The translations under genes and the position numbers were made by a program. DNA of 64,000 bases from an uncultured Phycisphaerales bacterium. Its GTDB lineage: Bacteria > Planctomycetota > Phycisphaerae > Tepidisphaerales > Tepidisphaeraceae. The notes below the pieces were generated by a model. It saw only the letters and a list, made by a program, of their open reading frames with translations, was not told the DNA's origin and ran no database searches. Below, one piece after another: positions 29,583 through 48,012 of this stretch. The stretch's first letter is position 1. Each line of letters begins with the position of its first letter. Location of the stretch: positions 736,001-800,000 of the forward strand of contig CAVWVQ010000003.1 of NCBI GenBank assembly GCA_963758525.1, written 5' to 3'.

Positions 29583-29975
29583 CTACCGCAACGCGACCGA
29601 ATCCGGGTCCGTCTCGCGCTCGATGCACTCCACAAGCTCCTCGAATTGAATGGACTTGGGCAGGTACCGCCGTTGGCTGACGCCGAACGACGGCTCGCAT
29701 GACTCCTGCCTGGTGACCAGGGCGGTGAGATAAAGCACGGGGATATGCTGAAGCCCCGGGTCCGCCTGCAGTTCTGCCGCCAGTTCGCTGCCGTCGATTT
29801 CGGGCATCATCACGTCCATGAGAACCAGGTGAGGGTCGAATTCCCGGATCGCTTCGATCGCTTTCCGAGAGTCGTTCACCTCGCGTACGGTGTACCCCGG
29901 CGTCGCTTCCAACAGCAGCCGAAGACTCCATGTGAAGTCTGGTTCGTCATCCACCACCATGATTCGCTTCTTCAT
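29583..29975 (-). CDS. Single-domain response regulator
   Basis: RIMVVDDE, LMDVMMPEIDG, YLTA, YLPKS. Confidence 0.9.
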   Translation of the reverse strand: MKKRIMVVDDEPDFTWSLRLLLEATPGYTVREVNDSRKAIEAIREFDPHLVLMDVMMPEIDGSELAAELQADPGLQHIPVLYLTALVTRQESCEPSFGVSQRRYLPKSIQFEELVECIERETDPDSVALR

Positions 29976-30333
29976 AGACGGCCTTGATCGCGTCGTGAAA
30001 AATCCTTCCGCATGCCCGAACGAACAAGATGTGCAGCCGAGCTGAAGCTTACGAGCCTGCCCGCGCAGCCGCAAGAAAAATCGGCTCCGAACACGAGGGC
30101 GCTGGACGTCTCCATGAGTCGCGAATCCGGATGCGCATTCTGTGCTGCCCCCCTTCGCCTGTCGCCAGCGAAGCAAAGTTTGGAAAGGCGGCCTCAAAAA
30201 CATACGCTATCGTCGATGTGAAGGGGCTGAGGCGATGACGCTTCAGCCAGAGCGCGGGGAACACAATTCGGAAAGGCCTGCTCTCATCTCTGGCGCCAGG
30301 GGCCGTCCGTATATCGCCGATCGGAGCAGATTC

Positions 30334-32516
30334 ATGAACCGGTTTGGGCGTAAGAACGGGGCCACGGGGCGTCTTGTGCGAGTCCATCTTCTGAAACTGA
30401 TTGTCTTTCGATGCGGCGCCGCGGTGCTCGCGGGAGGGAGCGTCTTGCGCAGAGCCCGCCCGGCACTCAACCCGCATCCGCTCCCCAGACGAGTATCGTC
30501 CCTGCATCGGATCTGACTCTTTCGCCAGAACCGTCCAAATTCAAGAACCTGAGCCTCGAGCAATTGATGCAGGTTGAGGTTTCCACCGTTTCGCGGGTAG
30601 ACGAGCGAATCGACGAGGCGCCCGGAAGCGTCTACGTTTATTCGAGCGATGTGATTCAAAACCGGGGTTACCGCAGCCTCGGGCAGTTGCTGCAGACCGT
30701 TCCGGGCTTCACGGTTTTCCATCGGGATCTCGACTTTGTCGTCGGCGTTCGCGGGTTGCTGGCGAACGATAACGACAAGGTTTCGCTCCTGATCAACGGC
30801 CAAAACGTCAACGGCCCGCACGAGCAGGATTTTCTCAACGGCCCGATCAATCTCGACAATGTCGAGCGTGTCGAAGTCGTGGTCGGCCCCTCCTCGCTGT
30901 TCCAACAGGGAAACACTCTGGCGGCCACGATCAACGTCATCACCAAGGATCCGGAAGGGATCGAACTGGTGAGCGGAGTGGGCAACGACCTGCGTTATTC
31001 GGAAACGCTGATGGGCGGCCATCGCTGGGCGCCGGACCGGCTGCTGAGCTTTTCGCTGAGCACCGAGGCCGAAAAAGGTTTCAATGCCTGGTCGCGTGGC
31101 GCCGGCCTGGGTGTTCCGGGAGAGACGCTGACGGGCGAAATCGATCAGCCGGACTATTTCGGCATCGTTCATGGGCAATATGGCGAACTATCCGGGCAAT
31201 TCATCGCCTATCGATCGAGCTGGCCGGAGCTGCACATCGACAGCGACGCGCGAAATGACGGAGAGATGTCGGAGCAAAAGTATTCGCTGTTCCTGAAAGC
31301 CGAGCATCCGTTCAGCGACAGCCTGACGGGAATCGCCCGAACCGAAGCCACGTTGAAAGAACAGACCCGGCTCAACGCGGATGGCATTCCGCCATTCAAC
31401 GCGGAGCAGCAGTCCCTCAATCAGTGGGACTACGCGAGCGAACTGGGACTTCGTTACACAGGCATCGAGCATCACATCATCCAATCCGGAGCTCAGTTCG
31501 AATATGACGACAATTTCAAGAATTATTTCACTTATCTCGGCCCAAATCAGCAGGGCCACATTCCAAGAACCTCTCTTTTCAACAAGGATGACTACGACAT
31601 CGGATTCTATCTCGATGACGAAATGCGGCTGACGGATCAATGGAAAGTGATCGGCGGAGCCCGGGTGGATCACAGCACGCGGCTGGAGGGCAACCGATGG
31701 TTCCCCGGCGCCCGGGCCGCGATCATTTACGAGCCGACGAAGATGTGGGTTTCCAAGGTCGTCTACAACCGATCGATTCGAATGCCGTCGGCGCTCGAGG
31801 CGTTAAATGACGTCTGGGGCTTCGAACATCGAGACCAGCCCACCGATCCGCCGTTCGCGCGGCTGTCGAATCCCGCAACAGAACCTGAGATTCTGTCCAC
31901 CATCGAGTGGGACAATATCGCTTACCTTGGCGACGCGCGGGTGGGAGTGAATATTTATCATCAGGACATGAGCGATTTCATCAGCTTCTTTCAGCCGCAT
32001 GCAAATGGCGGCAATCTCCACGGCGACGGTGTGGAACTCAATTTTGAAGCCCCGCTGAGAGATCGCGTCAAATTCTGGGCAAACGGCGCGTGGAACGATT
32101 CCAAGCTTCACCTGTTCAACAAAGCTTTGTTCGGCCCCAACCCCGAGGCCAGCGCCGGTGGAACTGAGTCGATTCACACATACGTCAATGAACACGATCA
32201 GATTATCGGATCGCCGAGCTATACCGCGAACGCGGGCGTGGAATACGAGATCACGAATCATCTGACTTTTTCGCCGTCACTCCGGTATTTCACGGATCAG
32301 GCTGCCGCCAACGACGGGGCATACCTTACCATCCGGAATCGGTTTTATGTCGACGCCACATTCATGTGGAGAGAGATCGCGGGCAGGCACCTGGACTTCG
32401 CGCTGTCCGGGTACAATCTTCTCGACAACCGGCAGTCGGTCGGTTCTCCGTTTAATGGAAATACATACAGACCCGGAGGTATCTCATTCGTCGCCTCGCT
32501 GACACTGAGGTTCTGA
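30334..32516 (+). CDS. TonB-dependent receptor 1 (probable frameshift near 30445 in the signal peptide region)
   Basis: LSLEQLMQVEVSTVSR, plug NVERVEVVVGPSS...ATINVITK, YNLLDN, terminal LTLRF; ATG 30334 after GGAG. Confidence 0.9.
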
Positions 32517-32628
32517 GCTGCAACCATCATCGGGAGGTCCGTCGGTTGAAATCCGCCGCAGCGTCTATGGGGCGATGACCCTCCGATGGTAGCATGGCGA
32601 TGGGGGATCAGCGGAAAGGAGACTCGCG

Positions 32629-34752
32629 ATGACGTCCCCTGGCGCCAAGGATTCTGCGGGAGCGCTCTGGAGCCAACATTGGCGCAGCAAGTCCGCAGGG
32701 GCGCGCGTCCGCCTGATTGGCGGGCTGCTGGCGCTGGCGGGCGGAGTGCAGAGCGGATCGGCCGCAGATCCCGCGACGCAGCCTGCATCTCCACAGATAT
32801 CAGCCACCACATCAGAGGCTCCTGCCACCGGCACCTCGCCGGGAGTATTGAAGAAACTCAGCCTCGAGGAGTTGATGAACGTCGAGGTCACCACCGTCAC
32901 GCGAACCGAAAGCACCGTCGGGTTGTCCCCAGCCGCCGTCTTCGTCATTACGCCAGAGATGATTGATCGCTCCGGTGCGCTGAGCCTCCCCGAGCTGTTC
33001 AGGATGGTGCCGGGGATGGACGTGGCGCGGGTTAATGGCAACACCTGGGCGGTCAGCTCGCGCGGGTACAGCTCGGCATTCGGGGCGGTTTTTCAGAACA
33101 ATCTGCTCGTCCAGGTGGACGGGCGAAGCGTCTACAATCCCATCTTCGGCGGGGTATTCTGGGACACCGTCGATTATCCGCTGCAGGACATCGAGCGCAT
33201 CGAAGTCGTCCGCGGGCCGGGCGGCACGGTCTGGGGGGACAACGCGGTCAACGGCGTCATCAACATCATCACCAAGCCCGCCGATGAAACCCAGGGCGGC
33301 CTCGTCAGCGGCGGCGCCGGAACGCTCGATCGCGGGTTCGGGTCGATCCGCTATGGGGGCAAAATCGGAGACAACACCTGCTACCGGGTTTATGGAAAAG
33401 GCCTGACCCGAGGAGATGATTTCGACTTCAAGGCCGAGCCCAACGACTCGTGGACTGTCGGAGACGGAGGCTTCCGCATCGACTCGCATCCGAGCGACGC
33501 CAATCAGTTCACCTTGCAGGGTGACTATGTTCATAGCGACGCCTCGAGCTTCGCTCAGGCTGGAACCAGGCCGTTCGACTTCACCAGCCAATTCACCGAG
33601 CGGTCCAACGGCACTGATGTGCTGGGCCGATGGACGCATCAGGTGGGCAAGGATTCCAGTTGGAGCCTGCAAACTTACTGGAATTACGTGGAACGCGACT
33701 CTTTTGACAACATTCTGAATCTCCGATGGAGCACGTACGATCTTGACTTTCAGCACAACTTCCTGATCGGCGACAATCAGAAGTTCAATTACGGGCTCGA
33801 ATACCGCTACAACGACTCGTTTCTGGGCCCCAGCTCGTCGAGCACGTTAACCGGGGTCACCAGAGCAAGGCAGAGCGTCTACAGCGGATTCCTCCAGGAC
33901 CAGATCGCGCTGGCGCCAGATCGGCTTTTCCTCACCCTCGGATCCAAGCTTGAATACAACACGTTTTCCCGGTTCGAATATCAGCCCAGCGGCCGGCTGC
34001 TGTGGAGCGTCGATCCTCGCCAATCCGTCTGGGCGGCCATTTCCCGCGCCGTGCATACTCCCGATGTATTCGAACGTGATGTGAGGTTCGTGGAGGCGGC
34101 CGTCCCGCCCGCGCCCGCCACGACTGTGATCGCTCCAAATATGGGCATCGATTCCGAGGCGGTGATTGCATACGAACTGGGCTATCGCGTTCAGGCGACC
34201 GAAACCGTTTCGCTGGACACCGCGGCCTTCTACAACGATTACACAAAAATCAGCCTTCTCGTGCCAGCCGGCGCTGCCCCCGTCCCCTTTATTTTCAAGA
34301 ACGCGATGCGGGGAAAGAGTTATGGTGTCGAGGTCGGGGCCACTTGGAAGCCCGCCGACTGGTGGCAGGTCCGTTCGGCATATACGTTCCAAACCGTTGA
34401 ACTGCACCCCGACCCCAGCCTTTCCCAAATGTTGCAATCCACCTACGGACAGGCTTCCAGGGAAACTCCGCAAAACCAGCTCTATCTTCAGTCCACCTGG
34501 AACCTCCCCCATCACGTCGACTTTGACTTGATGGCTCGATATGTCGAAACCACCGGCGGATTCGTCGGGCCCCAGCCCAATGTGCCCAGCTACATCTCGA
34601 TGGACGCTCGATTGGCCTGGAAACCACGTGACGATCTCGAACTGGCAGTCGTCGGGCAGAATCTGCTCGACAACCATCATCCCGAGTTTGGCGGAAGTCC
34701 GTCGGTGGAAATCCGACGCAGCGTCTATGGGACAGTTACCTACCGCTGGTAG
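32629..34752 (+). CDS. TonB-dependent receptor 2
   Basis: LSLEELMNVEVTTVTR, IERIEVVRGPGGTVWGDNAVNGVINIITK, GQNLLDNHHPEF, terminal YRW. Confidence 0.93.
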   Translation: MTSPGAKDSAGALWSQHWRSKSAGARVRLIGGLLALAGGVQSGSAADPATQPASPQISATTSEAPATGTSPGVLKKLSLEELMNVEVTTVTRTESTVGLSPAAVFVITPEMIDRSGALSLPELFRMVPGMDVARVNGNTWAVSSRGYSSAFGAVFQNNLLVQVDGRSVYNPIFGGVFWDTVDYPLQDIERIEVVRGPGGTVWGDNAVNGVINIITKPADETQGGLVSGGAGTLDRGFGSIRYGGKIGDNTCYRVYGKGLTRGDDFDFKAEPNDSWTVGDGGFRIDSHPSDANQFTLQGDYVHSDASSFAQAGTRPFDFTSQFTERSNGTDVLGRWTHQVGKDSSWSLQTYWNYVERDSFDNILNLRWSTYDLDFQHNFLIGDNQKFNYGLEYRYNDSFLGPSSSSTLTGVTRARQSVYSGFLQDQIALAPDRLFLTLGSKLEYNTFSRFEYQPSGRLLWSVDPRQSVWAAISRAVHTPDVFERDVRFVEAAVPPAPATTVIAPNMGIDSEAVIAYELGYRVQATETVSLDTAAFYNDYTKISLLVPAGAAPVPFIFKNAMRGKSYGVEVGATWKPADWWQVRSAYTFQTVELHPDPSLSQMLQSTYGQASRETPQNQLYLQSTWNLPHHVDFDLMARYVETTGGFVGPQPNVPSYISMDARLAWKPRDDLELAVVGQNLLDNHHPEFGGSPSVEIRRSVYGTVTYRW

Positions 34753-34765
34753 GCTGGAGAACCCG

Positions 34766-35350
34766 ATGGAACCACGTTTTGCTCGTGCACATCCTTCCTC
34801 GCAGCGATGCACCGCCGTCCGGCGGCTTCTGGGAGCCGTCGTGGCGGGCTGGATCGTCATGGGGCTGGCGCAAACTTCCGCGATGGCCGCCAGCAAGGAG
34901 TACGAGGTCAAGGCCGCGTTCCTCTTCCACTTCACTCAGTTTGTCGAGTGGCCCGACTCCGCGTTCGCCGATCCCAATGCCCCCTTCTGCATCGGCGTGC
35001 TCGGGGATGATTCGTTTGGGGGCGCGCTCGACGAAATCGTCAAGGACGAAAGCGTCGGCCGGCATAAGATCGTGATCAAGCGCTCCCGCCAGACGGCGGA
35101 CTTGAAAGGGTGCCAGATTCTCTTTATCAGCAACTCGGAGAAGGATCACGTCGCACAGATCCTCTCAAGCCTCGATGATTCGGGAATTCTCACGGTGGGC
35201 GAAACCGACGGTTTTGCCGGGCAAGGGGGAATCATCAACTTCTATCTCGAAGAGAACAAAGTGCGCTTCGAAATCAACCCCGGCACGGCAAAGCACCATG
35301 GGCTGAAGATCAGTTCTCAGTTGCTTGGCCTGGGCAGAATTGTCCGGTAA
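34766..35350 (+). CDS. YfiR/HmsC family (DUF4154) periplasmic protein
   Basis: [49 protein letters not shown]...[10 protein letters not shown]. Confidence 0.93.
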
Positions 35351-35364
35351 GACGTTGGAGACAG

Positions 35365-37014
35365 ATGAACCGGCTGAGAGATCTTTCGATCCGATGGAAG
35401 CTGACGCTTCTGGTTTTGGGTTCGACCCTGAGCGTGCTGCTGCTGGCGTGCATTGCGCTGGTGGTGCGCGAGGTTGCTGCATTCCGCCATGGCATGGTGC
35501 AGGAGCTGACGGTGCTTGCCGACGTCGTCGGCGACAACAGCCGCGCGGCGATCTCCTTCGACAGCCGCGAAGACGCCGAGCGCACGTTGTCGAGCCTTGA
35601 AGTGGAGCCGCACATCATGGGCGCGTGCCTGTTCGGGAAACAGGGAACGCGCTTCGCCGAATACACCCGCGCGGGGGTCGCCCTGGCGTTCCCGGCAGCG
35701 CCGCCCGCAGACGGATCTTATTTTGAACGCGATGATCTGGTGCTGGTTCATCCCGTCATGCTGCATGAGGAGCGCGTCGCGACGATCTACATCGTTTCGG
35801 ATCTCCAGCAGATCAGCGATCAGCTCAAGTCGTATGCCGTGATTATCTGCCTGGTCGTGCTGGCGGCGTTTCTGGTCACGTTCGCGCTCTCGTTTCGTCT
35901 GCACCGCTTCATCTCCGAGCCGATTCTCCGCCTTGCCGAGACGGCGCGCATCGTCGCGGAGAAGAAGGATTATTCCGTCCGCGTCGCCGCCAAAGGCGGC
36001 AAAGACGAGATCGGCCTGCTGACTGGCGCGGTGAATCACATGCTCTCGGAAATTGAGGCCGGCCATACCGCGATGCAGCAGGCCAACCAGTCGCTCGAGG
36101 CCCAGGCGGTGCAGATCAGCGACGCCAAACGATCGCTGGAGGGGCAGGCCGCCCGCATCATGGAGACGGTGAGCGTGCTGGGTTCTTCGTCCAAGGAGAT
36201 CCTCAGTTCAAGCTCGCGGCTTGCCGCCAGCGCCGTCGAGACAGCCACCGCCGTCAACCAGACGACGACCACGGTTGAGGAGGTTCGCCAGACGTCGCTT
36301 CATTCCAGCCAGAAAACACGCCAGGTGTCAGAGAGCGCCCAGCGCGCCGCGGAAGTGTCCGAGCGCGGCAAGCAATCGACGGAACAGACGGCCGAGGGAA
36401 TGCATCGCATTCGCGAGCAGATGCAATCCATCTCCGCCAGCATGCTGCGCTTGAGCGAGCAGACGCAGACGATCGGCGGCATCATCAACACCGTGGAGGA
36501 TTTGGCGCAGCAATCGAACCTGCTGTCGGTCAATGCCGCCATCGAAGCCGCCAAGGCCGGGGAGCATGGAAAGGGATTTGGCGTGGTGGCGCAGGAAGTC
36601 AAATACCTGGCCGACCAGAGCCGCCAGGCAACGACGCAGGTGCGCACCGTCCTCAATGACATCCAGCGGGCGACCAACGCAGTCCTGCTCGCGATCGAGC
36701 AGGGATCCAAAGCGGTTGAAGCCGGGGTGGAGCAATCCGCTGAGGCCGGCAGATCGATCATCCTGTTGTCCCACAACGTCAGCGACGCCGCTCTCGCGTC
36801 CGCGCAAATCGCGGCTTCCAGCCAGCAGCAGGTTGTGGGAATGGATCAGGTGGCCCACGCGATGGAGAGCATCAAGCAAGCCAGCACGCAAAATGTCGAA
36901 AGCGCCAAGCAACTGGAAACCGCGGCGCAAGGCCTCAGCCAGTTGGGGAAGCAACTGGAAGAGCTGGTGGGGCGATATAAGGTGATCTCGAACCGGGGGG
37001 AGAAGGGGGTTTAG
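35365..37014 (+). CDS. Methyl-accepting chemotaxis protein with YfiN-type CHASE8 sensor and HAMP domain
   Basis: TM1, [18 protein letters not shown]...G.RFAEY (CHASE8-like), TM2, HAMP ([10 protein letters not shown]...DEIGLL), MA tip [33 protein letters not shown]. Confidence 0.9.
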
Positions 37015-37079
37015 CGTGAGCGCCCTATCTCCTCTCGACGTGCCGCTCGCTGCGGGGAATCAGTGGTTCAAGTCGTTCA

Positions 37080-37695
37080 TCAAGGAGTGGAAGCTTTCGA
37101 CAGCGCGATGGGATACCGCGCTACGAACTCCCAATTCTGCGGGGAGCAGATTCTCTTTCTGGGGATTCTCGTTTACATATTTAATGCGGGAGCGCACCTC
37201 GTCGGGAGTGTATAAGAACTTCGAGTATGGGCGTTCGCCCCACACTCGGTGCCGATCCGAAAGATCCGCGACGGCGCGAAGCGATTCGCGAGCTCCCTCG
37301 GCGAAGGTGCGCCAGATGACTTCATGGGAATGTTTGTGTCGCTGGACCACGAGATGCGCGTGATTTCGGAGGATGGCGCACGCCCAAACGTTGTAGCCGA
37401 ATTGCTGGGCGGTTCGCGCGAAGCTTTCAGCGATGAGTTGACGCATGCGTGCATCGAACCAGAGGGTTTCGTGTTCCAACAAGGGCTGAGCTTCCGCGTG
37501 AAATTGCTTCAGCTCGGAGCGACTGGGTTGCCGCTGCTTTCTGCCAGGATGGATTTCGCCCAATGCCGCGAGGAGTTCTTTGCGAATTTCGTCGGAGCCG
37601 CTGCCGCGAATGTCGTTGGGGGGCCAATGTCCGTAGCCCATGAGTACTAAGTGATGAGCGATGACGATCCGATGGCGGGGTTGCCGGTGATTCAT
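37080..37695 (-). mobile_element. REP-associated tyrosine transposase-like HUH endonuclease (probable frameshift near 37142)
   Basis: HLVLMGYGHWPPNDIRGSGS, HUH motif NHAHLVV, catalytic Tyr IKYVNENP; an alternative frame gives PQNWEFVARYP...stop at 37080 (ORF track ends 37060). Confidence 0.8.
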
Positions 37696-37713
37696 GCTGA
37701 TTTGGCGAAACAT

Positions 37714-37944
37714 GGTCCGCGACGACGCGAAGCGACTGCCAGGCTCCGTCGGCAATCGAGCGGCAGATCACGCATTACAGTCTCGCTGCAGTGCTACGGT
37801 AGCGAACGACTGATTGAGAATCCAACGCTCTTCGGGGCCCACATTACTCGACCCTACTAATAACGCAGGTACCTGTTCACATCGGACTTCGTACATCGTG
37901 TTCCGCTGCGCGTCGCCGGCGCTCGCTTCGCGTCGTCGCGGACC
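37714..37944. repeat. Perfect 22-bp inverted repeat element upstream of the RAYT gene
   Basis: ggtccgcgacgacgcgaagcga (37714-37735) and tcgcttcgcgtcgtcgcggacc (37923-37944); one-mismatch copy at 26951-26971. Confidence 0.8.
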
Positions 37945-38005
37945 GTAGCACCCCAAGAGCCCAAGGAATTCATAACCCGACCCGAAATTGCGGTCCCGCT
38001 TCGAA

Positions 38006-39856
38006 TCACCCCCCCGCGCCTTCCTTCTCCGGCAACTCCCGCAATGGAAGATGCACCGTAAATCGTGAACCTTTCCCAGGCGTCGAGTCCACCTCGATCC
38101 TTCCCCCGTGGTCGGTGACAATTCCGTAGCTGATGCTCAACCCGAGCCCCGTCCCCTGCCCCAGAGGCTTGGTGGTAAAGAAGGGATCGAAAATCCGGCC
38201 GATCACGGCGGGCGGAATGCCGCAGCCGCAATCGGTGACGTCGATCGACAGTTCCGATGCATTAGCGCGGGTTCCGACGACGATCGTGGTGCCCGGTTCA
38301 GATGCATCGATCGCATTACCCAGCAAATTCATAATCACCTGATTGATCTTCGCGGGATAGCAGACCAGCGGGGGAACAGCGGGCAGGTTCATCTCGATCT
38401 TCACGCGCTTTTCCGTCGCGCGGTTGCGAATCAGGTTCACCGTTGACTCGATGCCGGCGTTGATATTCACGGCACTCAGGTCGCTCTCGTCGAGACGAGC
38501 GAAGTCGCGCAGGTCGGTCACGATATGCCGGATGCGATTCAAGCCGTCCTGCGAGCGGACGAGAATCTCCATCAGATTGTCCAGCGTGTAGTTCAGGTCG
38601 ATCCGGTCGCTCAGCTCGGCGATGGGTTCGAACAGATTGGATTGCTGCTGAATGATGCTGTCGGCGGCGCGGTACAGCATCAGGATCTGGCGGACGGAAC
38701 TGACGTCACGCCGCAGCACCGCGACGTTGTTGCTCACAAACGCCAGCGGGTTATTGATCTCGTGGGCGATGCCCGCAACCATCTGCCCCAGGCTCGCCAG
38801 TTTCTCGGTCTGCACCATCTGCGCTCGGGCGCGCTTCAGCGCCTGGTGCGCTTCACGCTCGGATCGGGCGGCGTCTTCAAGAAGATGGTTTTGCTGTTGC
38901 AGCTGCGCTTCGGTGCGCTTCCGCTCCGTGACATCGCGCACCACCGTGCACAACACCTGCCGGCGGCCATACGTGATGACGCCGGCACTGGCTTCGACGG
39001 TCACCAGCGATCCATCCTTGCGGCGGTACTGCCGCTCCCCGAAGGAATGCGAGCCGGCAGCGAGCACCTCCTCGAAGCGCGCATCCACGTTTTCGCGGTC
39101 GTGTCCGACAAAAACGTAGATGCTCATATTCTGCATCTCCTGGGCGCTGTAACCCAGAAGCCGCTGGAACGCTGCGTTGGACTCGACGACCTGCCGATTG
39201 TCCGCATCGACCAGATAAATCCCCTCGGCAGTTTGCTCCACCACGGCGCGGTATCGCTCCTCGCTCTGCTTGAGCTTCCGCGCCTGGTCGACCAGTTCCA
39301 TGTTCAGCAGCGTGAGCTCGCGCTTCGTCCGCGAAAGCTCGGTGTTCCGCTGCACCGCCGCGGCGTACGTCGAAAGCAGGAGATTGAGAATCTGCCGACG
39401 GTCCGCCGAAATGACGTGCGTTTCCCCGTTAAAGACAACCTCGACGGGGGAGGATTCCGCAATCCCCGTCGGAGCGGGATTGGCCAGGATCGACTCGACC
39501 CGTGCCAGCAATTGAGCCGGGTCGTAAGGCTTGGTCAGGTAATAGTCCGCCCCCACTTCCAGTCCGCGCAGCACGTCCGACGCTTCGGACAACGACGTAA
39601 GAAGGATCACCGGAATATCCCGCAGTTGCGGATCCTGCTTGATGGCGTGACACATCTCGTAGCCACCCATGATCGGCATTTCCACGTCGCTGATAATGAA
39701 CGTGGGCTTGCGTGTCCGGGCCGCGGCGAGCGCCTGTTCGCCATCCTCGGCAACCGTCACGCTGTAGCCGCACGCCTCCAGCAGATGAAGCAGGACATTG
39801 GCCTGCGTCGGACTGTCCTCGGCGATCAGGGCCTCGACAGGATTGGAAGCGCTCAC
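38006..39856 (-). CDS. Hybrid REC-PAS-histidine kinase
   Basis: REC (IAEDSPTQ, SDVEMP), [46 protein letters not shown]. Confidence 0.93.
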   Translation of the reverse strand: MSASNPVEALIAEDSPTQANVLLHLLEACGYSVTVAEDGEQALAAARTRKPTFIISDVEMPIMGGYEMCHAIKQDPQLRDIPVILLTSLSEASDVLRGLEVGADYYLTKPYDPAQLLARVESILANPAPTGIAESSPVEVVFNGETHVISADRRQILNLLLSTYAAAVQRNTELSRTKRELTLLNMELVDQARKLKQSEERYRAVVEQTAEGIYLVDADNRQVVESNAAFQRLLGYSAQEMQNMSIYVFVGHDRENVDARFEEVLAAGSHSFGERQYRRKDGSLVTVEASAGVITYGRRQVLCTVVRDVTERKRTEAQLQQQNHLLEDAARSEREAHQALKRARAQMVQTEKLASLGQMVAGIAHEINNPLAFVSNNVAVLRRDVSSVRQILMLYRAADSIIQQQSNLFEPIAELSDRIDLNYTLDNLMEILVRSQDGLNRIRHIVTDLRDFARLDESDLSAVNINAGIESTVNLIRNRATEKRVKIEMNLPAVPPLVCYPAKINQVIMNLLGNAIDASEPGTTIVVGTRANASELSIDVTDCGCGIPPAVIGRIFDPFFTTKPLGQGTGLGLSISYGIVTDHGGRIEVDSTPGKGSRFTVHLPLRELPEKEGAGG

Positions 39857-40956
39857 AAGCTCCCCCCCTTCAGATGAACTTTTTGATCCGCCGCTGCCTC
39901 AAGCAAGGCGGCAATGCGCTCGGGACTCAGAACAAACGCAGCCGCGTCCAGCTTGACGGCCTCGCCCGGCATCCCGAACACCAGACTGCTTTCCCGGTCC
40001 TGGGCGATCGTCATCGCGCCGCCATCCCGCATCATTTTCAACTGCTCGGCTCCGTCTCTTCCCATCCCCGTGAGTAGCACGCCCGCGGCAAAGGCGCCAT
40101 ACACGCGCGAGACCGATTCGAAGAGATGAGCCACCGACGGTCGCAACCCCGCATCCGGCGCCGCAAGACTCAGAACCAGCCTTCGATCGACGGCAACGCC
40201 CATGTGAAAACCATCGGGGGCGAGATAGGCGTGTCCGGGAAGCGCCTGCTCGCCGGCGCCGGCAATGCTCACGCGAAACCCGGTTGTAGCGGCGAGCCAA
40301 TCGACCAGGCCCTGCAGAAACCCGACGGCGATATGCTGCACGATCAGAATCGGAGCGGGAAACTCAGGCCGCAGCCCGCGCAGGATCGTCTGCAGCGCCA
40401 ACGGACCGCCAGTGGATGCGCCGATGGCAACCACTTCGGGGTGCGGGGTCTTTTGTGTCGGGGATGGAACGAACTGTCGCGCGGGAACGGCGGTCGGACG
40501 CGTCGGCGCGACCGCTGCCCGCGGGCGGGACCACCGCCGCACCATCTTCACCTCCGACATCGCTTTGACGGTCTGCACCAGATATCTCGCATCGCGCTCG
40601 TGGTCCCGATGGCCCGGCCCGTGAGGCTTCCCGACGATGGCAACCGCACCGGCTTCAATGGCTTTGAACGTCGTCGCCACCTCTTCCGGCCGCCAGTTGG
40701 CCGTGACGATCACGATCGGCACGGGCTGGTTTTCGATGATGCGGCGGGTCAACTCAAAACCATTCATTCCAGGCATATTGATGTCGACGGTCACCAGATC
40801 GGGAACGCCATGGCTCAAAGCCTCCAGCGCATCGGCGCCGTTCGCGGCGGTCCCCACAACGCTGATGTCGGGATCGGCGCTGAGGATGCCCTGCAGCAGT
40901 TCCCGCATCACTGCTGAATCCTCGACGATGAATATCCTGATCCGGTGATTCTGCAT
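39853..40956 (-). CDS. cheB: Chemotaxis methylesterase (REC plus CheB; WspF-like)
   Basis: IGASTGGP, VQHI, RPSV, LTGMGRDGA, VFGMPGEA. Confidence 0.95.
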   Translation of the reverse strand: MQNHRIRIFIVEDSAVMRELLQGILSADPDISVVGTAANGADALEALSHGVPDLVTVDINMPGMNGFELTRRIIENQPVPIVIVTANWRPEEVATTFKAIEAGAVAIVGKPHGPGHRDHERDARYLVQTVKAMSEVKMVRRWSRPRAAVAPTRPTAVPARQFVPSPTQKTPHPEVVAIGASTGGPLALQTILRGLRPEFPAPILIVQHIAVGFLQGLVDWLAATTGFRVSIAGAGEQALPGHAYLAPDGFHMGVAVDRRLVLSLAAPDAGLRPSVAHLFESVSRVYGAFAAGVLLTGMGRDGAEQLKMMRDGGAMTIAQDRESSLVFGMPGEAVKLDAAAFVLSPERIAALLEAAADQKVHLKGGSL

Positions 40957-40959
40957 TCG

Positions 40960-41006
40960 CTCTCAAATGAATGTTCGCGAGTTCTCTCAAATGAATGTTC
41001 GCGAGT
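40960..41006. repeat. Tandem direct duplication with 24-bp period
   Basis: ctctcaaatgaatgttcgcgagt at 40960-40982 and 40984-41006, just upstream of cheB. Confidence 0.85.
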
Positions 41007-41129
41007 ACGCGATCATGCCGGTCGATCCGCTGCCCGGAGGGCAGCCGCTGAACGATTGCTAAACGCTGCCAAACGTTGACGGAACCGTGCGATGGCGCGG
41101 GGTCTTTCAGCCCCGCGCAGCCGCGTCGC

Positions 41130-43742
41130 TCAAACAAGCCGTCGAACCACGTCCACGAGATTGCTCTGATCGAAACTTCCTTTCACGATATACGCGTTGG
41201 CCCCGACGTCGGCTCCCCGCTCGCGATCCGCGCGAGGCCAGGGCAGTCACCAGCACCACCGGAAGCTCCGCCAATCGCTTGTCGCGGCGGATCGCCGCCG
41301 TCAGATCGAATCCATTCATCCGCGGCATCTCGACGTCACTGACCACCACGTCAAACACTTCCGTGCGCAAGATCGCAAAGGCGTCGACCCCGTCCACCGC
41401 GGTCTTCACGCGATGTCCGGCGGACTCCAGGATGTTTTTGAGCAGCATCCGGGAGGTGATCGAATCCTCCACCACGAGCACCGACTTCCGCGACCTGGCC
41501 GAATCTTCGCCGGAGGGGCGGGCGGCCGCTGCCGGCCGCGCTTTCATCGCCGATTTCATCAAGTCCGCCACATTTAAAATCGGCACCGCGTGACCAGATC
41601 CAAGCACTGTCGCTCCCGCAATATTTCGCACGCGCGATAGCGGTTTGCCCAACTGCTTCACCAACACTTCCTGCTCATTCAACACCGCGTCGACCCGCAT
41701 GGCGATCCGCTTCTCCGCCGATCCGATCACCACCGCCGGCGCGAACCGGGTGGTTTCGTGGCCGGACGGACGGGACAAATCCAGCAGGTCTTCCAGCCGC
41801 ACCAGGGAAACCGTCCGGTCGTCGAGCACCATCATTTCCCGTCCCTCGACCGTCTTCACCTGATCGGGCCGCACGCTGGTGACGCGCTCCACGTGCGTGG
41901 TCGGAAGCACGAACAGTTGGTGAACGACTTCCACCAGAATCCCGCGAAACGTCGCCAGTGTCAGCGGCAACAGGAGCCGAAACGACGTGCCGGCTCCCGG
42001 GCGCGTCTCCAGCGTGACGCGTCCGCCGAGCTTCTCCACTTTCTCCTGCACGATCGCCAGGCCCAGGCCGCGCCCGGAGATTTCGGTGATCGTGTCGCGC
42101 GTCGAAACCTCCGGCTCGAAAATCAGATTCAGCGCTGCGGCGTCCGCCAGTTCATTGGCCTGCGCCTCCGTGAGGTTGCCGTGACGAACCGCTGCCGCGC
42201 GAACGCGGGCGACGCTGATGCCTTGGCCGTCGTCGGAAATCAATATTTCAACTTTGTTTCCGTCCGCCTGGGAGACGGCAAGGTCGATGGTCCCGCGCCA
42301 GGCTTTCCCGCCGCCGTCCGCTGCTGCGGCGTCTCGATGCCATGATCGATGCAGTTTCGCAGGAGGTGAATCAGCGGATCCTTGAGATCTTCAAGAATCC
42401 GCTTGTCAATTTCGCTGTCTTCCCCGCGAATCACCAGCTCGATCTCCTTTCCCATGTCCCTGGATAACTCGCGGACGAGCCTGGGAAACGCGGCAAACAG
42501 GGTGCTGAACGGGAGCATCAGCAGGCGCTTGGATTCTTCCAGCAGAAGGTCGACCCGGGCGGCGGTGTCACGCCGATCGCGGTCGGCGAGCTTCGCCACC
42601 GTTCGGAGCTGATCCTCCGCGGAGCGGACAAACGACTGATTCCAGTCGAAAAACTCCAGCAGCCTGGCCGCAAGCGACGCGGGCACTACGCAATCGCGGC
42701 TGTCGTTTTCCGCCACGCTCCGGCCGTCAGCGCCCGCCGCGGTCATTTGCCGCAGGCTCTGGATGTCGGCCGTCAGCGACGTCCATTGCTTTTCCCATCC
42801 CGCCCACATCACGGTGACATCGCGAAGGTCCGAAGCGCGCTGATCAGCGTTGAGCTTCAGCGCCAACAGTTCCTCGGCGTGCAGCAGGAGCGCATCGAGT
42901 TTGTCAGTTGAAATCCTCAGCGTCTGCGACAGCGAAGACCGCGGAACCGCCCCGCGGTCCCGCGGCGAAGGTGCCGCCTCAGGGGCAGGCGACGCTGCTG
43001 TCTCAGGGGCAGACGACGCTGCTGCCGCAGGGGCAACGGCCGGTGCCGCGGCCGCGGCCGGCGCCTGGCGTGCTGTGAATCCTGTTTCCTGCGAAACGCC
43101 TCTGGTCCCCTCTCCCGGTATCCCGGGAGAGGGATAGGGTGAGGGTGATTTTGGATTGGCAACGGTCGCTCGAACTTCCGAATCACCCTCACCCCTGCCC
43201 TCTCCCGGCGTACCGGGAGAGGGAGCAGTCGGCTCTTGCGACATTGCGCGGTCGCTCGCCCGAACCGGGTCGTCTTGCGGCTTCGTCTCAACCGGCGCCG
43301 CGGCACGCTCAGTGCGCCGCGGCGCAGGCCGTGCCACTTCCAGAGCGGCAAGCTCCTCCTGGACCTTGAACAGCTCGTCGCGCTCGACTTCCGACGCCGC
43401 GCCCCGCGAAGTCGGCAGCAGCCTTTCCACCACCTTGACGGCGCGATGCAGCGGATCCAGCAGCTCCGGAGCCGCCCCCGCGTCACGCCGCTTCCAGGCG
43501 GAGAAGACGCCTTCCAGGGCCTGACAGACCATTTCGATCTCCGCAAGGTTCACCGCGCGGGCGGCGCCTTTGAGACTATGAGCGTCGCGGAAAATGCTCG
43601 ACACGATCTCCTGTCGGCGCGGAGCCTCCGAAGTTTTCTCCAACGCCAGCAATCCCGCGGTAATGGCCTGCAGATGCTCTTCGGCCTCCACGCGGAATGC
43701 GGCCTGCAGTTTGCCGAGAAATTCGTCGTCAGACGACTTCAT
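41130..43742 (-). CDS. cheA: CheA-REC hybrid kinase (WspE-like; frameshifts near 42290 and 41225)
   Basis: Hpt FRDAHSLKGAARAV, HLLRNCIDHGIE, SDDGQG, SGRGLGLAIV, CheW-like domain, C-terminal REC ending VKGSFDQSNLVDVVRRLV. Confidence 0.92.
43107..43224. repeat. REP doublet embedded in frame in cheA
   Basis: cccctctcccggtatcccgggagagggatagggtgagggtgatt ... aatcaccctcacccctgccctctcccggcgtaccgggagaggg. Confidence 0.85.
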
Positions 43743-44274
43743 GAGGGATCACCGTTCACTTCTTCATGCACAACGATCGACTCGTCTTCCATGATCCTGG
43801 CCGCGTCGAGGACGATCAGTTGCTGGTCCGTGACGCCCAGCAAATATCTCGCGCCACGCCGGTGAGCGTTGAGGGCGCCGGCCGAATTTCGCTGCTGCAA
43901 AGCGACCGGACCCCGAGAATGGCGTCGGCAAGGACGCCGAGCTCGCCTTCGTGATGCTCGATCACAATCACCTTGTTCAAATCGGTCAGACCTTTGATCG
44001 GCAAGTCAAAAAACCGCCGCAGATCGATCACCGTGAGGATCTGCCCGCGCACATTGATGATTCCCAGCACGAATGAAGGCGTGCAGGGAAGCGGTGTCAG
44101 CTCCTTGATGGGGTACACCTCGCGCACCCGGATGCTTTCGATCGCATACTGTTCGTCCGCAAGGCGGAAAACGACGACTTCCAGCGAATTTGTCGTCTCA
44201 TCGGTCGAGCGAATCTCCCTCGCCAGATCGTGCGCGCGTGACTTGAGGATTTCCTTTTTGCTGGAGAGATTCAT
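43739..44274 (-). CDS. cheW: CheW (WspD-like; frameshift near 43855)
   Basis: FRLADEQYAI, TPLPCTPSFVLGIINVRGQILTVIDLRRFF; ATGA overlaps with both neighbours. Confidence 0.92.
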
Positions 44275-45681
44275 ACCGATAAGCCCCCGTCAACAATCGT
44301 ATGGATGATCTCGGCGAGCCGACCCACGGCCATCCCGTCCGAGTCGGGCACCGGCTCGTCCCGCGAGCGTCCGTGAAGCAGTTCGAGCGCGTTGGCAAAA
44401 TGCCTGCTCATCTGCGACAGCTCACCCTGGTGACGCGCAAGATGCGCCAGCGCGAAGTGGGCCATGACGAACGTCGGATCCAGATAGACGGCCCGGTTGA
44501 ATGAGGCCGCCGCTCCGCGAAAGTCGGCCATTTCCATCAGCATGCTTCCGCGCAGGTAGTGAAAGCTGGGATTCATTTTCTCCGCGTCAATGGCGCGCTG
44601 GCTCAATTCCAGCGCGGCCGCGAGCTTTCCCTGATTGGCATGCGCCTGCGCCATCAAGGCGAGAACGCCCGGAGGGGGATTGAGCCGGGCGGCAATGGGC
44701 TTCAGCCAATGCACCACCTCCGCATATCGCCCCTTCTCGAACAGCGCCGCGGCATGAGCCAGCGCGTCAGCGTCGACATCGACGGGCGCGAGATTCGGCG
44801 CGGGCTCATTGGAACGCTCCGGTTCTTCAAGGACGGCGGCGCCTTTTTGGAATACGACAATCCCCGGATAACTGGCCGTTGTGAGTTCTTTGGACTGGAC
44901 AAATGCGGTCTCCGCTGCGCCGACCAGCAGCCATCCATCTTCGCAAAGGCAGCGGCTGAATTTTTCCACGAGGCGTTCGATCTGCGCCGCAGCGAGGTAG
45001 ATCATGACATTGCGGCACATGATCAGATCCATCGCATTGGTGTTGTTCAGCAACGAAGGAAAGGCGTCCTGGGCCAGGTTGAGATAATCGAAGCTCACCA
45101 TTCTTCGAATTTCTTTGCGCACCTCGAGTTGTCCGTCGCCCGCCGGAGTGAAAAATCGATCCTTGATCTCCGGCGGCAAATTCCGAAATGACCAGTCGCC
45201 AAAAACTCCGGCAGCGGCCTTCTGCAGGAAGCGCGGGTTGATGTCCGTCGCCAGCAGCGTGATGTCCCAATCGTTCACATCGGGCAGGAGCCGGGCCAGC
45301 GTGATGGCCAGGGAATACGGCTCTTCGCCGGTGCAGCATCCGGCCGTCCAGATTCTCAGCCGCCGCTGCTCCGATCTGCGCGCAGAATCAGCGCCGGCAG
45401 AATTTCCTGGGCGAGAATCTCGAAGCTTCGCTGCTCCCGGAAAAAGTAGGTTTCGCCGACCGTGAGATGGCTGGCGAGAATCTCGATCTGCCGTTGGTCC
45501 AGCCGCGCGGAGCAGAGCCACACCGCGCAGCTCTCGGCATCATCAAAGCCGAATTCGCATGCAGCCGCCGCAACGCCGCGCATCAGATCCGCATGCCGTT
45601 CGGCGCGAAGTGAAGCCCCATGCTCGCTTCGATCACTTTGCTCAATTGCCCGGGAAGCAATTGGCGGATGGGGTCGGTCAT
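44271..45681 (-). CDS. cheR: CheR methyltransferase with TPR domain (WspC-like; frameshifts near 45600 and 45380)
   Basis: LTVGETYFFRE, IWTAGCCTGEEPYS, ATDIN, DLIMCRNVMIY, C-terminal TPRs. Confidence 0.92.
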
Positions 45682-46154
45682 GACGCCCCCGTGGCTCGAT
45701 GGTGTTCGTCGATTGCCCCGGTTAACGATAGTTCGTCATTGCCCGACAGGAGGGAATCGAGGTCGTACACCAGGATCATCTCATCCGATCGCCTGAAGAC
45801 CGTCTGCGAGTAATCCAGCGCCGAAGCGATCTGCTCGACGGGGATCAATTCGTCGGCGGCGCACGCGATCACCTCGCTCGAATCGACGATAAAAGCGACG
45901 GTCCGCCTGGAGGTGTGGGCGATGACTAGCTGATGATCGAGTTCGATCTCGCGGTCCACCAGACCGCAGCGACGGCGCAGATTCAGAACCGGCACGATTT
46001 CGCCATGAACGTTGACGATGCCAGCCACGATCGGCGGCGCCTCCGGCAGCGGCGTTACGTACACGACGCGAACCACGCGGTCGACGGCCGCTACCGGCAA
46101 CGCGAAGCGCTGTTCATCCAACGCGACAACCACGAAATGCGAAACAGCCGCCAT
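45678..46154 (-). CDS. cheW: CheW (WspB-like)
   Basis: TPLPEAPPIVAGIVNVHGEIVPVLNLRRRCG. Confidence 0.92.
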   Translation of the reverse strand: MAAVSHFVVVALDEQRFALPVAAVDRVVRVVYVTPLPEAPPIVAGIVNVHGEIVPVLNLRRRCGLVDREIELDHQLVIAHTSRRTVAFIVDSSEVIACAADELIPVEQIASALDYSQTVFRRSDEMILVYDLDSLLSGNDELSLTGAIDEHHRATGAS

Positions 46155-46251: not shown

Positions 46252-47079
46252 TCATTCAACAGTTGATACTACCACCCCCGTATGCACATCCATTCCCATC
46301 GCCTGAAAGATTTTATCGCGCGTCCGCAGATACTGCGGGGAATCGATGTCGCGCGGGCGCGGCAAGTCGACTGGCACCACGTCGCGGACAGTGGCCGGAC
46401 GATTGCTCATCACCAGCACGCGATCGGCCAGTTGCACCGCTTCTTCGATATCGTGCGTGACGAACAGGACGGTTTTCTTCTCGCCCTGCCAGATGCGGAT
46501 GAGATCGGCGCGCATCTTCAGGCGGGTGAGAAAGTCGAGCGCGCCGAACGGCTCATCCATATAAATGATGTCGGGATTGGCGGCGAGCGCGCGGGCGATC
46601 TCAACGCGCTGACGCATTCCGCCGGACAATTCGCGCGGGTAGGAGCGCTCGAAGCCGTCCAGGCCGACCATGTCAACATAATGCGCGACGATCCGGTTTC
46701 GCTCGGTCGCGCTGAGGCGCGACAGGCCAAAACCGATGTTTTGTTCGACGGTCAGCCAGGGGAAAACCCCATTTTCCTGGAAGACGAAGATGCGCCGATG
46801 GTCGGGGCCGGAAACGGGCTGTCCCTCGACGATCACGTCGCCGCGGGTTGGGGTCAGGAAGCCGGCGATGATGTTGAGCAGCGTTGATTTGCCGCAGCCG
46901 GACGGGCCGACGATGCAGACGAACTCGCCGGGGGAGACGTCGATGCTGACTGACTCCAGCACGTGAACCTGCTCGTCGCGTCGCTTGCCGGCAAAGCTCA
47001 TCCACAGATCGCGCACGACCACGATGGGGCCGGCAGGAATGACCTTTTGCGTCAAGATTGAGCTCCCCGGCTGCTTCAT
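46252..47079 (-). CDS. ABC transporter ATP-binding protein (NitT/TauT family)
   Basis: GPSGCGKST, LSGGMRQR, MDEPFGALD, VTHDIEEA. Confidence 0.95.
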   Translation of the reverse strand: MKQPGSSILTQKVIPAGPIVVVRDLWMSFAGKRRDEQVHVLESVSIDVSPGEFVCIVGPSGCGKSTLLNIIAGFLTPTRGDVIVEGQPVSGPDHRRIFVFQENGVFPWLTVEQNIGFGLSRLSATERNRIVAHYVDMVGLDGFERSYPRELSGGMRQRVEIARALAANPDIIYMDEPFGALDFLTRLKMRADLIRIWQGEKKTVLFVTHDIEEAVQLADRVLVMSNRPATVRDVVPVDLPRPRDIDSPQYLRTRDKIFQAMGMDVHTGVVVSTVE

Positions 47080-47912: not shown

Positions 47913-47989
47913 GAGCTTCTTTCTCTTTTCCAATACGATCGTGTCGATTGTAGCGATGGCGTCGTTCCATCCGTAATTTCTTGGGCTTC

Positions 47990-48012
47990 GTAGGGCGGGA
48001 TTCATCCCGCCG
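47990..48012. repeat. Single GTAG REP
   Basis: gtagggcgggattcatcccgccg; same family as 58317-58407. Confidence 0.75.

What the first reader, a model, noticed from the sequence alone, without database searches (positions are those of the whole stretch)
29583..46154. Candidate trans-envelope chemosensory system: TBDR-TBDR-YfiR-CHASE8/MCP converging on an MCP-less Wsp-like operon
Seen: a plus-strand run of two TonB-dependent receptors, YfiR and a membrane sensor with a YfiN-type CHASE8+HAMP N-terminal half and a methyl-accepting C-terminal half. About 1 kb further, across a RAYT gene, is a convergent and mostly ATGA-coupled operon cheW-cheR(TPR)-cheW-cheA(REC)-cheB-REC/PAS/HK with no MCP. Known: YfiR represses the CHASE8 sensor YfiN (a diguanylate cyclase) in YfiBNR, TBDR-YfiR-sensor triads usually end in a kinase or GGDEF domain, and Wsp/ACF operons normally carry their own receptor. 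Inference: an outer-membrane receptor signals through YfiR to a chemoreceptor array with methylation adaptation and a hybrid-kinase output. I do not know of a characterised example of this wiring.
Basis: partly seen in the sequence, partly recalled or inferred. Interest (0 to 1): 0.88.

Follow-up and report, generated by a model that had tools for sequence, protein, structure and literature searches.

The report
Outer-membrane receptor wired to chemosensory pathway
Two outer-membrane receptors, a periplasmic YfiR-like protein and a chemoreceptor with a YfiN-type sensor sit next to a chemotaxis-like operon that lacks its own receptor; they likely form its input, a rare chemoreceptor version of a widespread, catalogued but untested envelope-spanning signalling trio.

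Summary
Observation confirmed, with one correction: cheA, cheR, cheW2 and TBDR1 carry six frameshifts, all at GCGC, as do 19 of 22 breaks sampled genome-wide, so they are likely sequencing errors. The CHASE8-HAMP-MCP is very likely the operon's own receptor. The genome has one other MCP, in its own cluster (30% identical), while this MCP is about 60% identical to receptors inside operons of this type. In 6 of 9 other loci the same trio runs straight into cheA. The parts are known: NCBIfam catalogues the TBDR-YfiR-sensor trio (NF053590-92), Malone 2012 listed a YfiN with MCP output, and a TBDR-periplasmic protein-kinase relay (PahS/P/K) is characterised. This scan found the same module on four other genomes. 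New here: yfiR-linked receptors of divergent subfamilies share a short helix (LSLEELM) just before the TonB box. In 151 genomes 52 of 58 motif hits lie within 5 kb of yfiR, against 0 of 19 motif-less hits. Verdict: new variant of a known kind.

The parts
29583..29975 (-). Stand-alone receiver (REC) gene, divergent from TBDR1; possible accessory part
   Evidence: Pfam Response_reg; a 45%-identical REC lies directly upstream of the TBDR1-like gene in G658 (L143)
30334..32516 (+). TBDR1, divergent TonB-dependent receptor; frame break near 30447 in the signal-peptide region
   Evidence: Pfam Plug + barrel; NF053590 107 bits, far under cut-off 645; frames read; 50-57% homolog heads a linked che operon in G658
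30540..30590 (+). LSLEQLM helix motif and following TonB-box-like strand of TBDR1
32629..34752 (+). TBDR2, TOL_0244-like TonB-dependent receptor (plug + barrel, no Pfam signalling domain hit)
   Evidence: NF053590 590.6 bits over 74-706, cut-off 645; AF2 model pLDDT 85; fold matches CirA/BtuB/FepA
32848..32898 (+). LKKLSLEELMNVEVTTV: predicted periplasmic helices (71-75, 79-83) directly before the TonB-box position; candidate YfiR-docking element
   Evidence: DSSP on model, pLDDT about 65 there; L82 112/118, E80 99/118, M83 88/118; the part after the motif aligns to the CirA N-terminus
34766..35350 (+). YfiR-like periplasmic protein (TOL_0243 family)
   Evidence: DUF4154 156 bits; NF053591 167 > 125; true YfiR model NF053586 31 < 85
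35365..37014 (+). Chemoreceptor TM-CHASE8-TM-HAMP-MCPsignal, 40H-like; AAISF patch at residues 61-65 (35545-35559)
   Evidence: (NF053592 219 > 194)
37060..37755 (-). RAYT-like Y1 transposase ORF at the junction; probably not part of the system
   Evidence: NF047646 35 bits, under cut-off 80; 27-nt inverted arms at 37714-37740 / 37918-37944
38006..39856 (-). REC-PAS-HisKA-HATPase output kinase (multidomain response regulator)
39853..40956 (-). cheB (REC + methylesterase)
   Evidence: NF001965 313 > 293
41130..43742 (-). cheA with C-terminal REC; frame breaks near 42295 and 41236
43108..43223 (.). REP-like inverted repeat lying in frame in the cheA linker
   Evidence: 43-nt arms, 88% complementary; core hairpin has 73 copies in the genome
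43739..44274 (-). cheW2; frame break near 43853; stop overlaps the cheA start (ATGA), leaving no room for an MCP
44271..45681 (-). cheR-TPR; frame breaks near 45590 and 45383
45678..46154 (-). cheW1

Best explanation
The TBDR-TBDR-yfiR-MCP run and the convergent cheW-cheR-cheW-cheA-cheB-kinase operon are likely two halves of one non-motility (ACF-type) chemosensory system, in which a YfiR-like protein likely shuttles between the outer-membrane receptor and the chemoreceptor's CHASE8 domain. Steps: (1) shown: domains, gene order, MCP type, single candidate receptor, conserved linkage. (2) Inferred by homology, about 0.75: YfiR binds the AAxxF patch of CHASE8 and holds the receptor in one state, as in YfiR-YfiN. 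(3) Inferred, about 0.45: an outside ligand binds the TBDR, the TonB box and the LSLEELM helix before it are exposed to the periplasm, and the helix captures YfiR through the pocket that YfiB uses, freeing CHASE8. The TBDR would thus replace YfiB. (4) From established chemosensory logic: HAMP and the MCP hairpin change CheA autophosphorylation through the two CheWs; CheR-TPR and CheB adapt by methylation; phosphoryl flows to CheB, the CheA REC and the REC-PAS-kinase, which feeds a downstream two-component output. Ligand, sign and final output are unknown. Pairing of MCP and operon alone: about 0.9.
For: Only 2 MCPs and 5 CheW domains in the genome; the other MCP sits in its own cheA-cheW-MCP-cheR-cheB cluster. 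Signalling domain: median 60.5% identity to 111 non-CHASE8 MCPs of this type, 30% to the other own MCP; 73 of 78 such loci have a che core gene within 4.5 kb, the other 5 are contigs of 1.3-3.4 kb. Tip-to-motif spacing 89 against 75 in the other MCP, gap-free C-arm against PcaY. Of 9 other CHASE8-MCP loci with DNA, 9 have yfiR directly upstream, 8 have a TBDR in the cluster and 6 run into cheA (L047, L052, G356, G658, G559, G1054). YfiN's YfiR-binding motif AAVVF (PMC3375315) matches AAISF here; F65 in 44 of 49 aligned homologs. YfiR partner-surface residues are conserved (F168, E169, I170, L186 120/120). Both strong NF053590 hits of the genome precede a yfiR. Helix motif: 52 of 58 hits within 5 kb of yfiR against 0 of 19 motif-less hits; 35 of 36 motif genomes have yfiR; 8 of 8 in a second class. 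Motif-bearing receptors of different subfamilies score only 70-134 bits against each other, like unrelated TBDRs. TonB and ExbB-family genes are present. FecA-type signalling domains occupy the same position before the TonB box (PMC11658791).
Against: All support for steps 2-3 is co-occurrence and homology. The motif profile includes 25 residues of plug start and was built from yfiR-linked receptors, so it may mark descent and not a binding site; kin are not independent. In the gammaproteobacterial sample only 11 of 22 motif hits lie near yfiR and 7 of 15 yfiR genomes have no motif hit. 11 of 62 yfiR hits in the first sample have no motif receptor within 5 kb, and 8 of 17 kinase-type yfiR loci fetched show no TBDR directly upstream. 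G248 has the trio with a different MCP type (31%) and no che marker nearby; L048 shows none in 9.5 kb upstream. A strict AA-hydrophobic-x-F pattern is found in only 65 of 120 homologs. TBDR2 stays under the NF053590 cut-off. Four comparable breaks fall in the 4.9-kb cheW-cheR-cheW-cheA core where 0.76 are expected (P 0.008 for that hand-picked interval, 0.19 for the whole module), so decay in this strain is not excluded.
Confidence: 0.5

Rival explanations
1. Ligand hand-over: the TBDR imports or presents a small, probably hydrophobic molecule; YfiR acts as a periplasmic binding protein that takes it and then docks on CHASE8, as PahP does between PahS and PahK. The helix would be a resting dock for YfiR or only a TonB-binding aid.
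For: PahS(Q91_0827)-PahP(0826)-PahK(0825) has the same gene order and was shown by SPR, co-IP, two-hybrid and FRET to work this way (PMC10570129). P. aeruginosa YfiR binds vitamin B6 and L-Trp in the pocket YfiB uses (PMC4887326). The family namesake TOL_0244 rises sevenfold on n-C28 alkane and is 40.3% similar to OmpS, reported as an alkane sensor (PMC6304351).
Against: PahP is described as a two-domain binding protein of at least 254 residues; this YfiR is a 194-residue single domain. B6/Trp affinity is in the ten-millimolar range. One TBDR-kinase-ABC_sub_bind cluster examined has a receptor without the helix motif (L237). Very divergent TBDRs pair with closely related YfiRs, which fits a protein-protein relay better than a ligand-specific carrier.
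Confidence: 0.3
2. YfiR-CHASE8 senses periplasmic state (envelope or redox) by itself; the TBDR is a co-regulated output or neighbour and not an input.
For: yfiR-CHASE8 pairs occur without an adjacent TBDR. Malone 2012 treats YfiR-YfiN[PAS/HAMP] as the ancient core. C75/C116 align with the redox-switchable C71-C110 pair of P. aeruginosa YfiR.
Against: C75 is kept in only 59 of 120 homologs and the C145-C152 pair is absent. Genomes with an orphan yfiR often carry a motif receptor elsewhere (G205, G008, G1083 with 10 of each). Adjacency survives inversion in 3 pairs. The helix motif would be unexplained.
Confidence: 0.12
3. In this strain the che core is decaying after a rearrangement, and the trio is a relic or signals elsewhere.
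For: Breaks concentrate in cheR, cheW2 and cheA; a transposase-like gene sits at the junction; a REP-like element lies in cheA.
Against: 22 of 107 sampled genes elsewhere in this assembly show a frame change; 19 of these 22 and all six breaks here lie at GCGC, against 25% background (P 2e-9); no in-frame stop substitutions were seen in the aligned stretches' frames and catalytic motifs are intact.
Confidence: 0.08

Closest known systems
NCBIfam trio NF053590 (TOL_0244 TBDR), NF053591 (TOL_0243 YfiR-like), NF053592 (YfiR-like-associated sensor kinase N-terminus)
   Same: Gene order TBDR-yfiR-sensor; YfiR and sensor N-terminus pass the cut-offs, TBDR2 nearly.
   Different: Output is an MCP feeding a che operon, not a kinase; two TBDRs. 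No mechanism found in print in my searches.
YfiBNR of Pseudomonas aeruginosa (Malone 2012 PMC3375315; Li 2015 PMC4655355; Xu 2016 PMC4887326)
   Same: YfiR fold, CHASE8/PAS-HAMP sensor, conserved partner surfaces; Malone's Table S4 lists a Polaromonas 'YfiN' with MCP output.
   Different: No yfiB in the cluster, no GGDEF, no C145-C152 disulfide; below the cut-offs of true YfiR and YfiN models; 'TonB' does not occur in that paper's main text or 8 supplements.
ACF-class chemosensory operons (Wsp-like; CheR-TPR clusters, Munoz-Martinez 2012 PMC3447774)
   Same: Two CheW, CheR-TPR, CheA-REC, CheB, multidomain response regulator, 40H-like MCP.
   Different: Order cheW-cheR-cheW-[MCP]-cheA-cheB-RR, REC-PAS-kinase output in place of WspR REC-GGDEF, receptor on the opposite strand, YfiR/TBDR input.
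PahS/PahP/PahK/PahR of Cycloclasticus (PMC10570129) and TOL_0244/OmpS (PMC6304351)
   Same: TBDR, periplasmic shuttle and inner-membrane sensor in three adjacent genes; TBDR acting as an outside sensor.
   Different: PahP is a two-domain substrate-binding protein, not reported as YfiR-like; output is a kinase.
Cell-surface signalling by TonB-dependent transducers (FecA/FecR/FecI, FpvA, FoxA; review PMC11658791)
   Same: An extra element just before the TonB box of a TBDR, in a signalling gene context.
   Different: A helix of about 10 residues in place of a 79-residue signalling domain; soluble YfiR in place of membrane FecR; chemosensory output in place of an ECF sigma factor.

Membership tests
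NCBIfam TOL_0244/0243/NF053592 trio | YfiR-like protein over NF053591 cut-off | tested here: met
   167.3 > 125
NCBIfam TOL_0244/0243/NF053592 trio | Sensor N-terminus over NF053592 cut-off | tested here: met
   219.2 > 194 over residues 8-231
NCBIfam TOL_0244/0243/NF053592 trio | TBDR over NF053590 cut-off | tested here: inconclusive
   TBDR2 590.6 < 645 but full-length best hit; TBDR1 107
NCBIfam TOL_0244/0243/NF053592 trio | Histidine-kinase output on the sensor | tested here: not met
   MCPsignal instead
YfiBNR | YfiB (PAL-like lipoprotein) in the operon | tested here: not met
   No OmpA/PAL hit among the 27 ORFs scanned around the locus; a genome-wide YfiB search was not run
YfiBNR | GGDEF output; YfiN and YfiR equivalog cut-offs | tested here: not met
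   NF007423 88.8 < 325; NF053586 30.9 < 85
YfiBNR | AAVVF-like patch on the sensor and hydrophobic partner surface on YfiR | tested here: met
   AAISF 61-65; V166/F168/E169/I170/L186/L187/L189 conserved
YfiBNR | C145-C152 disulfide of YfiR | tested here: not met
   Aligned positions are not Cys
YfiBNR | Physical YfiR-sensor repression | not testable with these tools
ACF chemosensory class | Multidomain response regulator and CheR-TPR | tested here: met
   criteria from PMC3447774
ACF chemosensory class | 40H chemoreceptor | tested here: met
   C-arm gap-free against PcaY, 14 residues longer than the 36H-like second MCP; N-arm register ambiguous by one heptad in the phmmer alignment; PcaY as 40H is recalled
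ACF chemosensory class | CheA class by the Wuichet-Zhulin/MiST models | not testable with these tools
   Class models not in the libraries; the paper was not retrievable
TonB-dependent transducer (FecA type) | N-terminal signalling domain plus anti-sigma/ECF pair | tested here: not met
   No such Pfam hit on either TBDR or neighbour; only short helices in the model
PahS/PahP/PahK type | Two-domain periplasmic substrate-binding protein | tested here: not met
   194-aa DUF4154 protein against a two-domain PahP

The most novel reading that the evidence does not exclude
The LSLEELM helix before the TonB box is a ligand-gated docking site for YfiR. TBDR, soluble YfiR and CHASE8-HAMP then form a distinct, widespread kind of cell-surface signalling without sigma factor (yfiR in 40 of 151 sampled Verrucomicrobiae-class genomes) that plugs into kinases or, as here, a methylation-adapting chemoreceptor array, so that a chemoreceptor senses molecules that never need to reach it.
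Probability: 0.4. Interest if true: 0.8.

Novelty: new variant of a known kind. Interest (0 to 1): 0.57.

Why it matters
Malone 2012 left open what feeds YfiR in the many yfiR-yfiN systems that lack YfiB. The data here point to a TBDR and to one short helix on it, which can be tested with a peptide. If right, it explains a large catalogued but unstudied family and gives a chemoreceptor controlled from the outer membrane through a protein shuttle. The MCP version is rare (full-length hits in 2 of 301, 3 of 401, 0 of 107 and 0 of 301 sampled genomes) but has homologs named from Verrucomicrobium isolates, so cultured test strains may exist.

Tried and rejected
Sequencing runs: one DNA run with a 0.09 share, no RNA holder listed; its contigs are short, none of the 8 pieces shown spans a break with enough flank, so the frameshifts could not be checked. 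Plasmid collection: no record covers 80% of the MCP. PDB by sequence: no CHASE8 match; YfiR only at E 0.56-0.81. AF2 monomer of the MCP drew the hairpin as one long helix (pTM 0.36), so it could not fix the heptad class; its sensor domain matched WalK-type PAS folds weakly. Promoter/terminator scans: nothing above chance. Idea that the motif is strictly next to yfiR: rejected; it holds better per genome. Idea that motif receptors also pair with ABC_sub_bind proteins: not supported (0 of 22 motif hits near one by the tables; one such cluster lacks the motif, one is cut by a contig end). Idea of a simple inversion from the same-genus G1054 layout: not shown, since its CheW/CheA are no closer (39-57%) than those of distant loci. 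L065 (full-length match, 2.2-kb contig) was dropped from the 9-locus count as uninformative. Paper searches with no relevant hit: chase8+chemoreceptor+yfir 0; yfir+tonb-dependent+histidine kinase+duf4154 3 listings (19); chase8+yfin+periplasmic 4 (24); yfir+tonb-dependent receptor+outer membrane+operon 1 (69); tonb-dependent+yfir-like+sensor 0 (108). Most subscription papers are not in the library.

Full report
OBSERVATION. The genes are as described. Plus strand: TBDR1, TBDR2, yfiR-like (DUF4154) and a 549-aa TM-CHASE8-TM-HAMP-MCP with two strong hydrophobic segments near residues 16 and 159. Minus strand, 991 bp on: cheW1, cheR-TPR, cheW2, cheA-REC, cheB, REC-PAS-kinase. cheW2 and cheA overlap by ATGA, exactly where related operons carry their MCP. 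A weak RAYT-like ORF fills the gap.

FRAMESHIFTS. Six breaks were found: two in cheR, one in cheW2, two in cheA, one in the TBDR1 signal region. As a control, 424 ORFs from 400 kb of a same-genus genome were mapped on this assembly; 107 passed the identity and length filters and 22 of them show a frame change (0.156 per kb, a lower bound). 19 of these 22 junctions have GCGC within 15 bases, against 25% of random sites, and so do all six here. This points to a systematic read error; that it stems from long-read base-calling at a modified motif is inference. The che core still has more breaks than the average rate predicts (P 0.008 for the chosen 4.9 kb, 0.19 for the module), and public contigs could not settle it.

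IS THE MCP THIS OPERON'S RECEPTOR? The 6.47-Mb genome (91% complete, 6% contamination) has two MCPsignal and five CheW matches. The second MCP lies in a separate cheA-cheW-MCP-cheR-cheB cluster, is 30% identical and 14 residues shorter from tip to the C-arm motif (75 against 89). The window's signalling domain is a median 60.5% identical to 111 non-CHASE8 MCPs; 73 of 78 loci of that type have a che core gene within 4.5 kb, typically in the order cheW-cheR-cheW-MCP-cheA-cheB-RR. CheR-TPR with a multidomain response regulator marks ACF pathways (PMC3447774, passages); WspA-type receptors are 40H (PMC11253619, passages).

LINKAGE ELSEWHERE. 117 of the 120 best homologs (query included; 45-86% identity) carry CHASE8+HAMP+MCPsignal. 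Nine other loci had DNA. yfiR is directly upstream in 9 of 9. The trio is co-directional with cheA in 6: L047, L052, G356, G658, G559 and the same-genus G1054. G559 is also split, with cheW-cheR-cheW-cheB-RR convergent on TBDR-yfiR-MCP-cheA-RR, and G1054 shows no cheR or cheB in the 40 kb fetched. L049 ends inside the MCP; L048 has the TBDR downstream and no che marker in view; G248 has the trio with a different MCP type and no che marker nearby. Full-length hits are rare: 2 of 301 genomes of the own class, 3 of 401 of a Chthoniobacter MAG's class, 0 of 107 and 0 of 301 in Myxococcota samples (in three of these searches only 3-4 candidates per genome were scored). Most CHASE8 hits end in kinases, including the genome's second trio. 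In a quick tree of 97 CHASE8-HAMP regions, non-MCP outputs nest among MCP outputs (6 changes, at least 3 forced); in a tree of 165 MCP domains the CHASE8 label changes 9 times (at least 6 forced). Only about half and a third of the 120 homologs went into these trees, and the set is biased to relatives of the query. Input and output modules are swapped repeatedly; no direction is claimed.

INTERFACES. Malone 2012 (passages and Table S4) proposes that YfiR binds AAVVF on YfiN. The MCP has AAISF at 61-65 (A61 37, A62 33, L/I/V63 48, F65 44 of 49). By the weak phmmer alignment to P. aeruginosa YfiR (E 0.56), the YfiB/YfiN-binding surface described in PMC4655355 and PMC4887326 (passages) maps to residues that are invariant or nearly so in 120 homologs. 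The C145-C152 pair is absent; C116 is invariant, C75 is in 59 of 120.

THE RECEPTOR HELIX. TBDR2 folds as plug plus barrel (pLDDT 85), with short predicted helices at 71-75 and 79-83 just before the strand that aligns with the CirA N-terminus; reading that strand as the TonB box is from established knowledge. The motif L-x-x-[LM]S[LM]EELM-x-x-x-V is in all 15 yfiR-linked receptor N-termini examined and in none of three other receptors of this genome. These receptors belong to subfamilies that score only 70-134 bits against each other. Among 31 relatives, 29 plug hits lie in 11 genomes; the motif profile gives 48-72 bits to 7 hits, four next to yfiR and three in two genomes whose yfiR has no adjacent TBDR; two more in G205 show the motif by eye; none of the 7 TBDR-bearing genomes without yfiR has it. 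In 151 genomes of a second class, 52 of 58 motif hits (two training hits left out) lie within 5 kb of yfiR, 0 of 19 motif-less hits do, 35 of 36 motif genomes have yfiR and 35 of 40 yfiR genomes have the motif. In 161 genomes of a third class the local link is weaker: 11 of 22 hits, 8 of 8 motif genomes with yfiR, 8 of 15 yfiR genomes with motif; one genome has ten of each, mostly unlinked. G1100, flagged unpublished, enters only that denominator. The profile also covers the start of the plug, so ancestry alone could give this pattern. Binding is untested.

MECHANISM. Best reading (0.5): ligand-loaded TBDR exposes the helix, captures YfiR, frees CHASE8, and the MCP changes CheA activity, with CheR/CheB adaptation and a REC-PAS-kinase output. 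Ligand-driven exposure of the TonB box in BtuB and a signalling domain before the box in FecA are precedents (PMC11658791, passages). Main rival (0.3): YfiR carries ligand from TBDR to sensor as PahP does (PMC10570129: abstract, passages, sections 10, 11, 14, one supplement searched). Both make YfiR a shuttle. TOL_0244 is induced on long alkane and resembles OmpS (PMC6304351, passages; the OmpS paper itself was not read), a hint at hydrophobic ligands that does not identify the ligand here.

NOVELTY. Known: YfiR-YfiN core with MCP output in silico (2012), the NCBIfam trio, ACF operons, a TBDR-periplasm-kinase relay. The scan noted the same module on four other genomes; the NCBIfam lead came from there and was tested. 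Not found in ten paper searches (listings only except the papers named): a TBDR-YfiR link, the helix motif, or a tested CHASE8 chemoreceptor. Subscription papers and bioRxiv supplements were out of reach. Heptad labels for PcaY and Tsr, the name ACF/Wsp gene order and GTDB class names for the sampled groups are recalled or taken from record titles. Verdict: real, a new variant of a known kind, with one concrete new testable element; interest 0.57.

Noticed in passing
window 43108-43223: A REP-like inverted repeat (43-nt arms) lies in frame in the cheA linker; its hairpin has 73 copies in the genome, 11 as pairs within 200 bp, and 13 lie with at least 150 open codons on both sides in some frame. 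Possible coding-sequence REP insertions.
   Followed up: partly
whole genome G000: Frame breaks cluster at GCGC (19 of 22), a likely assembly-wide error signature; split genes in this genome should be read with care.
   Followed up: yes
window 37060-37944: RAYT-like ORF with 27-nt inverted arms upstream and a partial arm copy inside the ORF at 37265; about 9 related places in the genome.
   Followed up: partly
window 40960-41006: Exact 23-nt tandem duplication between cheA and cheB.
   Followed up: no
window 51512-53142 (-): A second PAS-histidine kinase, split in two ORFs, similar to the operon's output kinase around the phospho-His; possible paralog or partner.
   Followed up: no
window 46252-49321 (-): NMT1-type ABC transporter directly upstream of cheW1 on the same strand; the permease gene gave no Pfam hit in its longest ORF and looks broken.
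   Followed up: no
G000:C3:1523366-1529100 (L007): Second TBDR-yfiR-CHASE8 trio with a hybrid kinase; its TBDR is also split. Cross-talk between the two YfiRs is possible.
   Followed up: partly
G1083 (L240-L246, L249, L250): One genome with ten motif receptors and ten yfiR genes, mostly unlinked; a good case for pairing specificity.
   Followed up: partly
L237 and L238 (G1129): TBDR next to an ABC_sub_bind protein and an sCache hybrid kinase or REC: a PahS/P/K-like sister layout.
   Followed up: partly
L147-L148 (G248): TBDR-TBDR-yfiR-CHASE8-MCP with a different MCP type (31% identity), suggesting a separate fusion.
   Followed up: partly
L054: A TBDR-yfiR-CHASE8-kinase trio directly upstream of the same operon type with ordinary MCPs: a layout from which the fusion could arise.
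   Followed up: no
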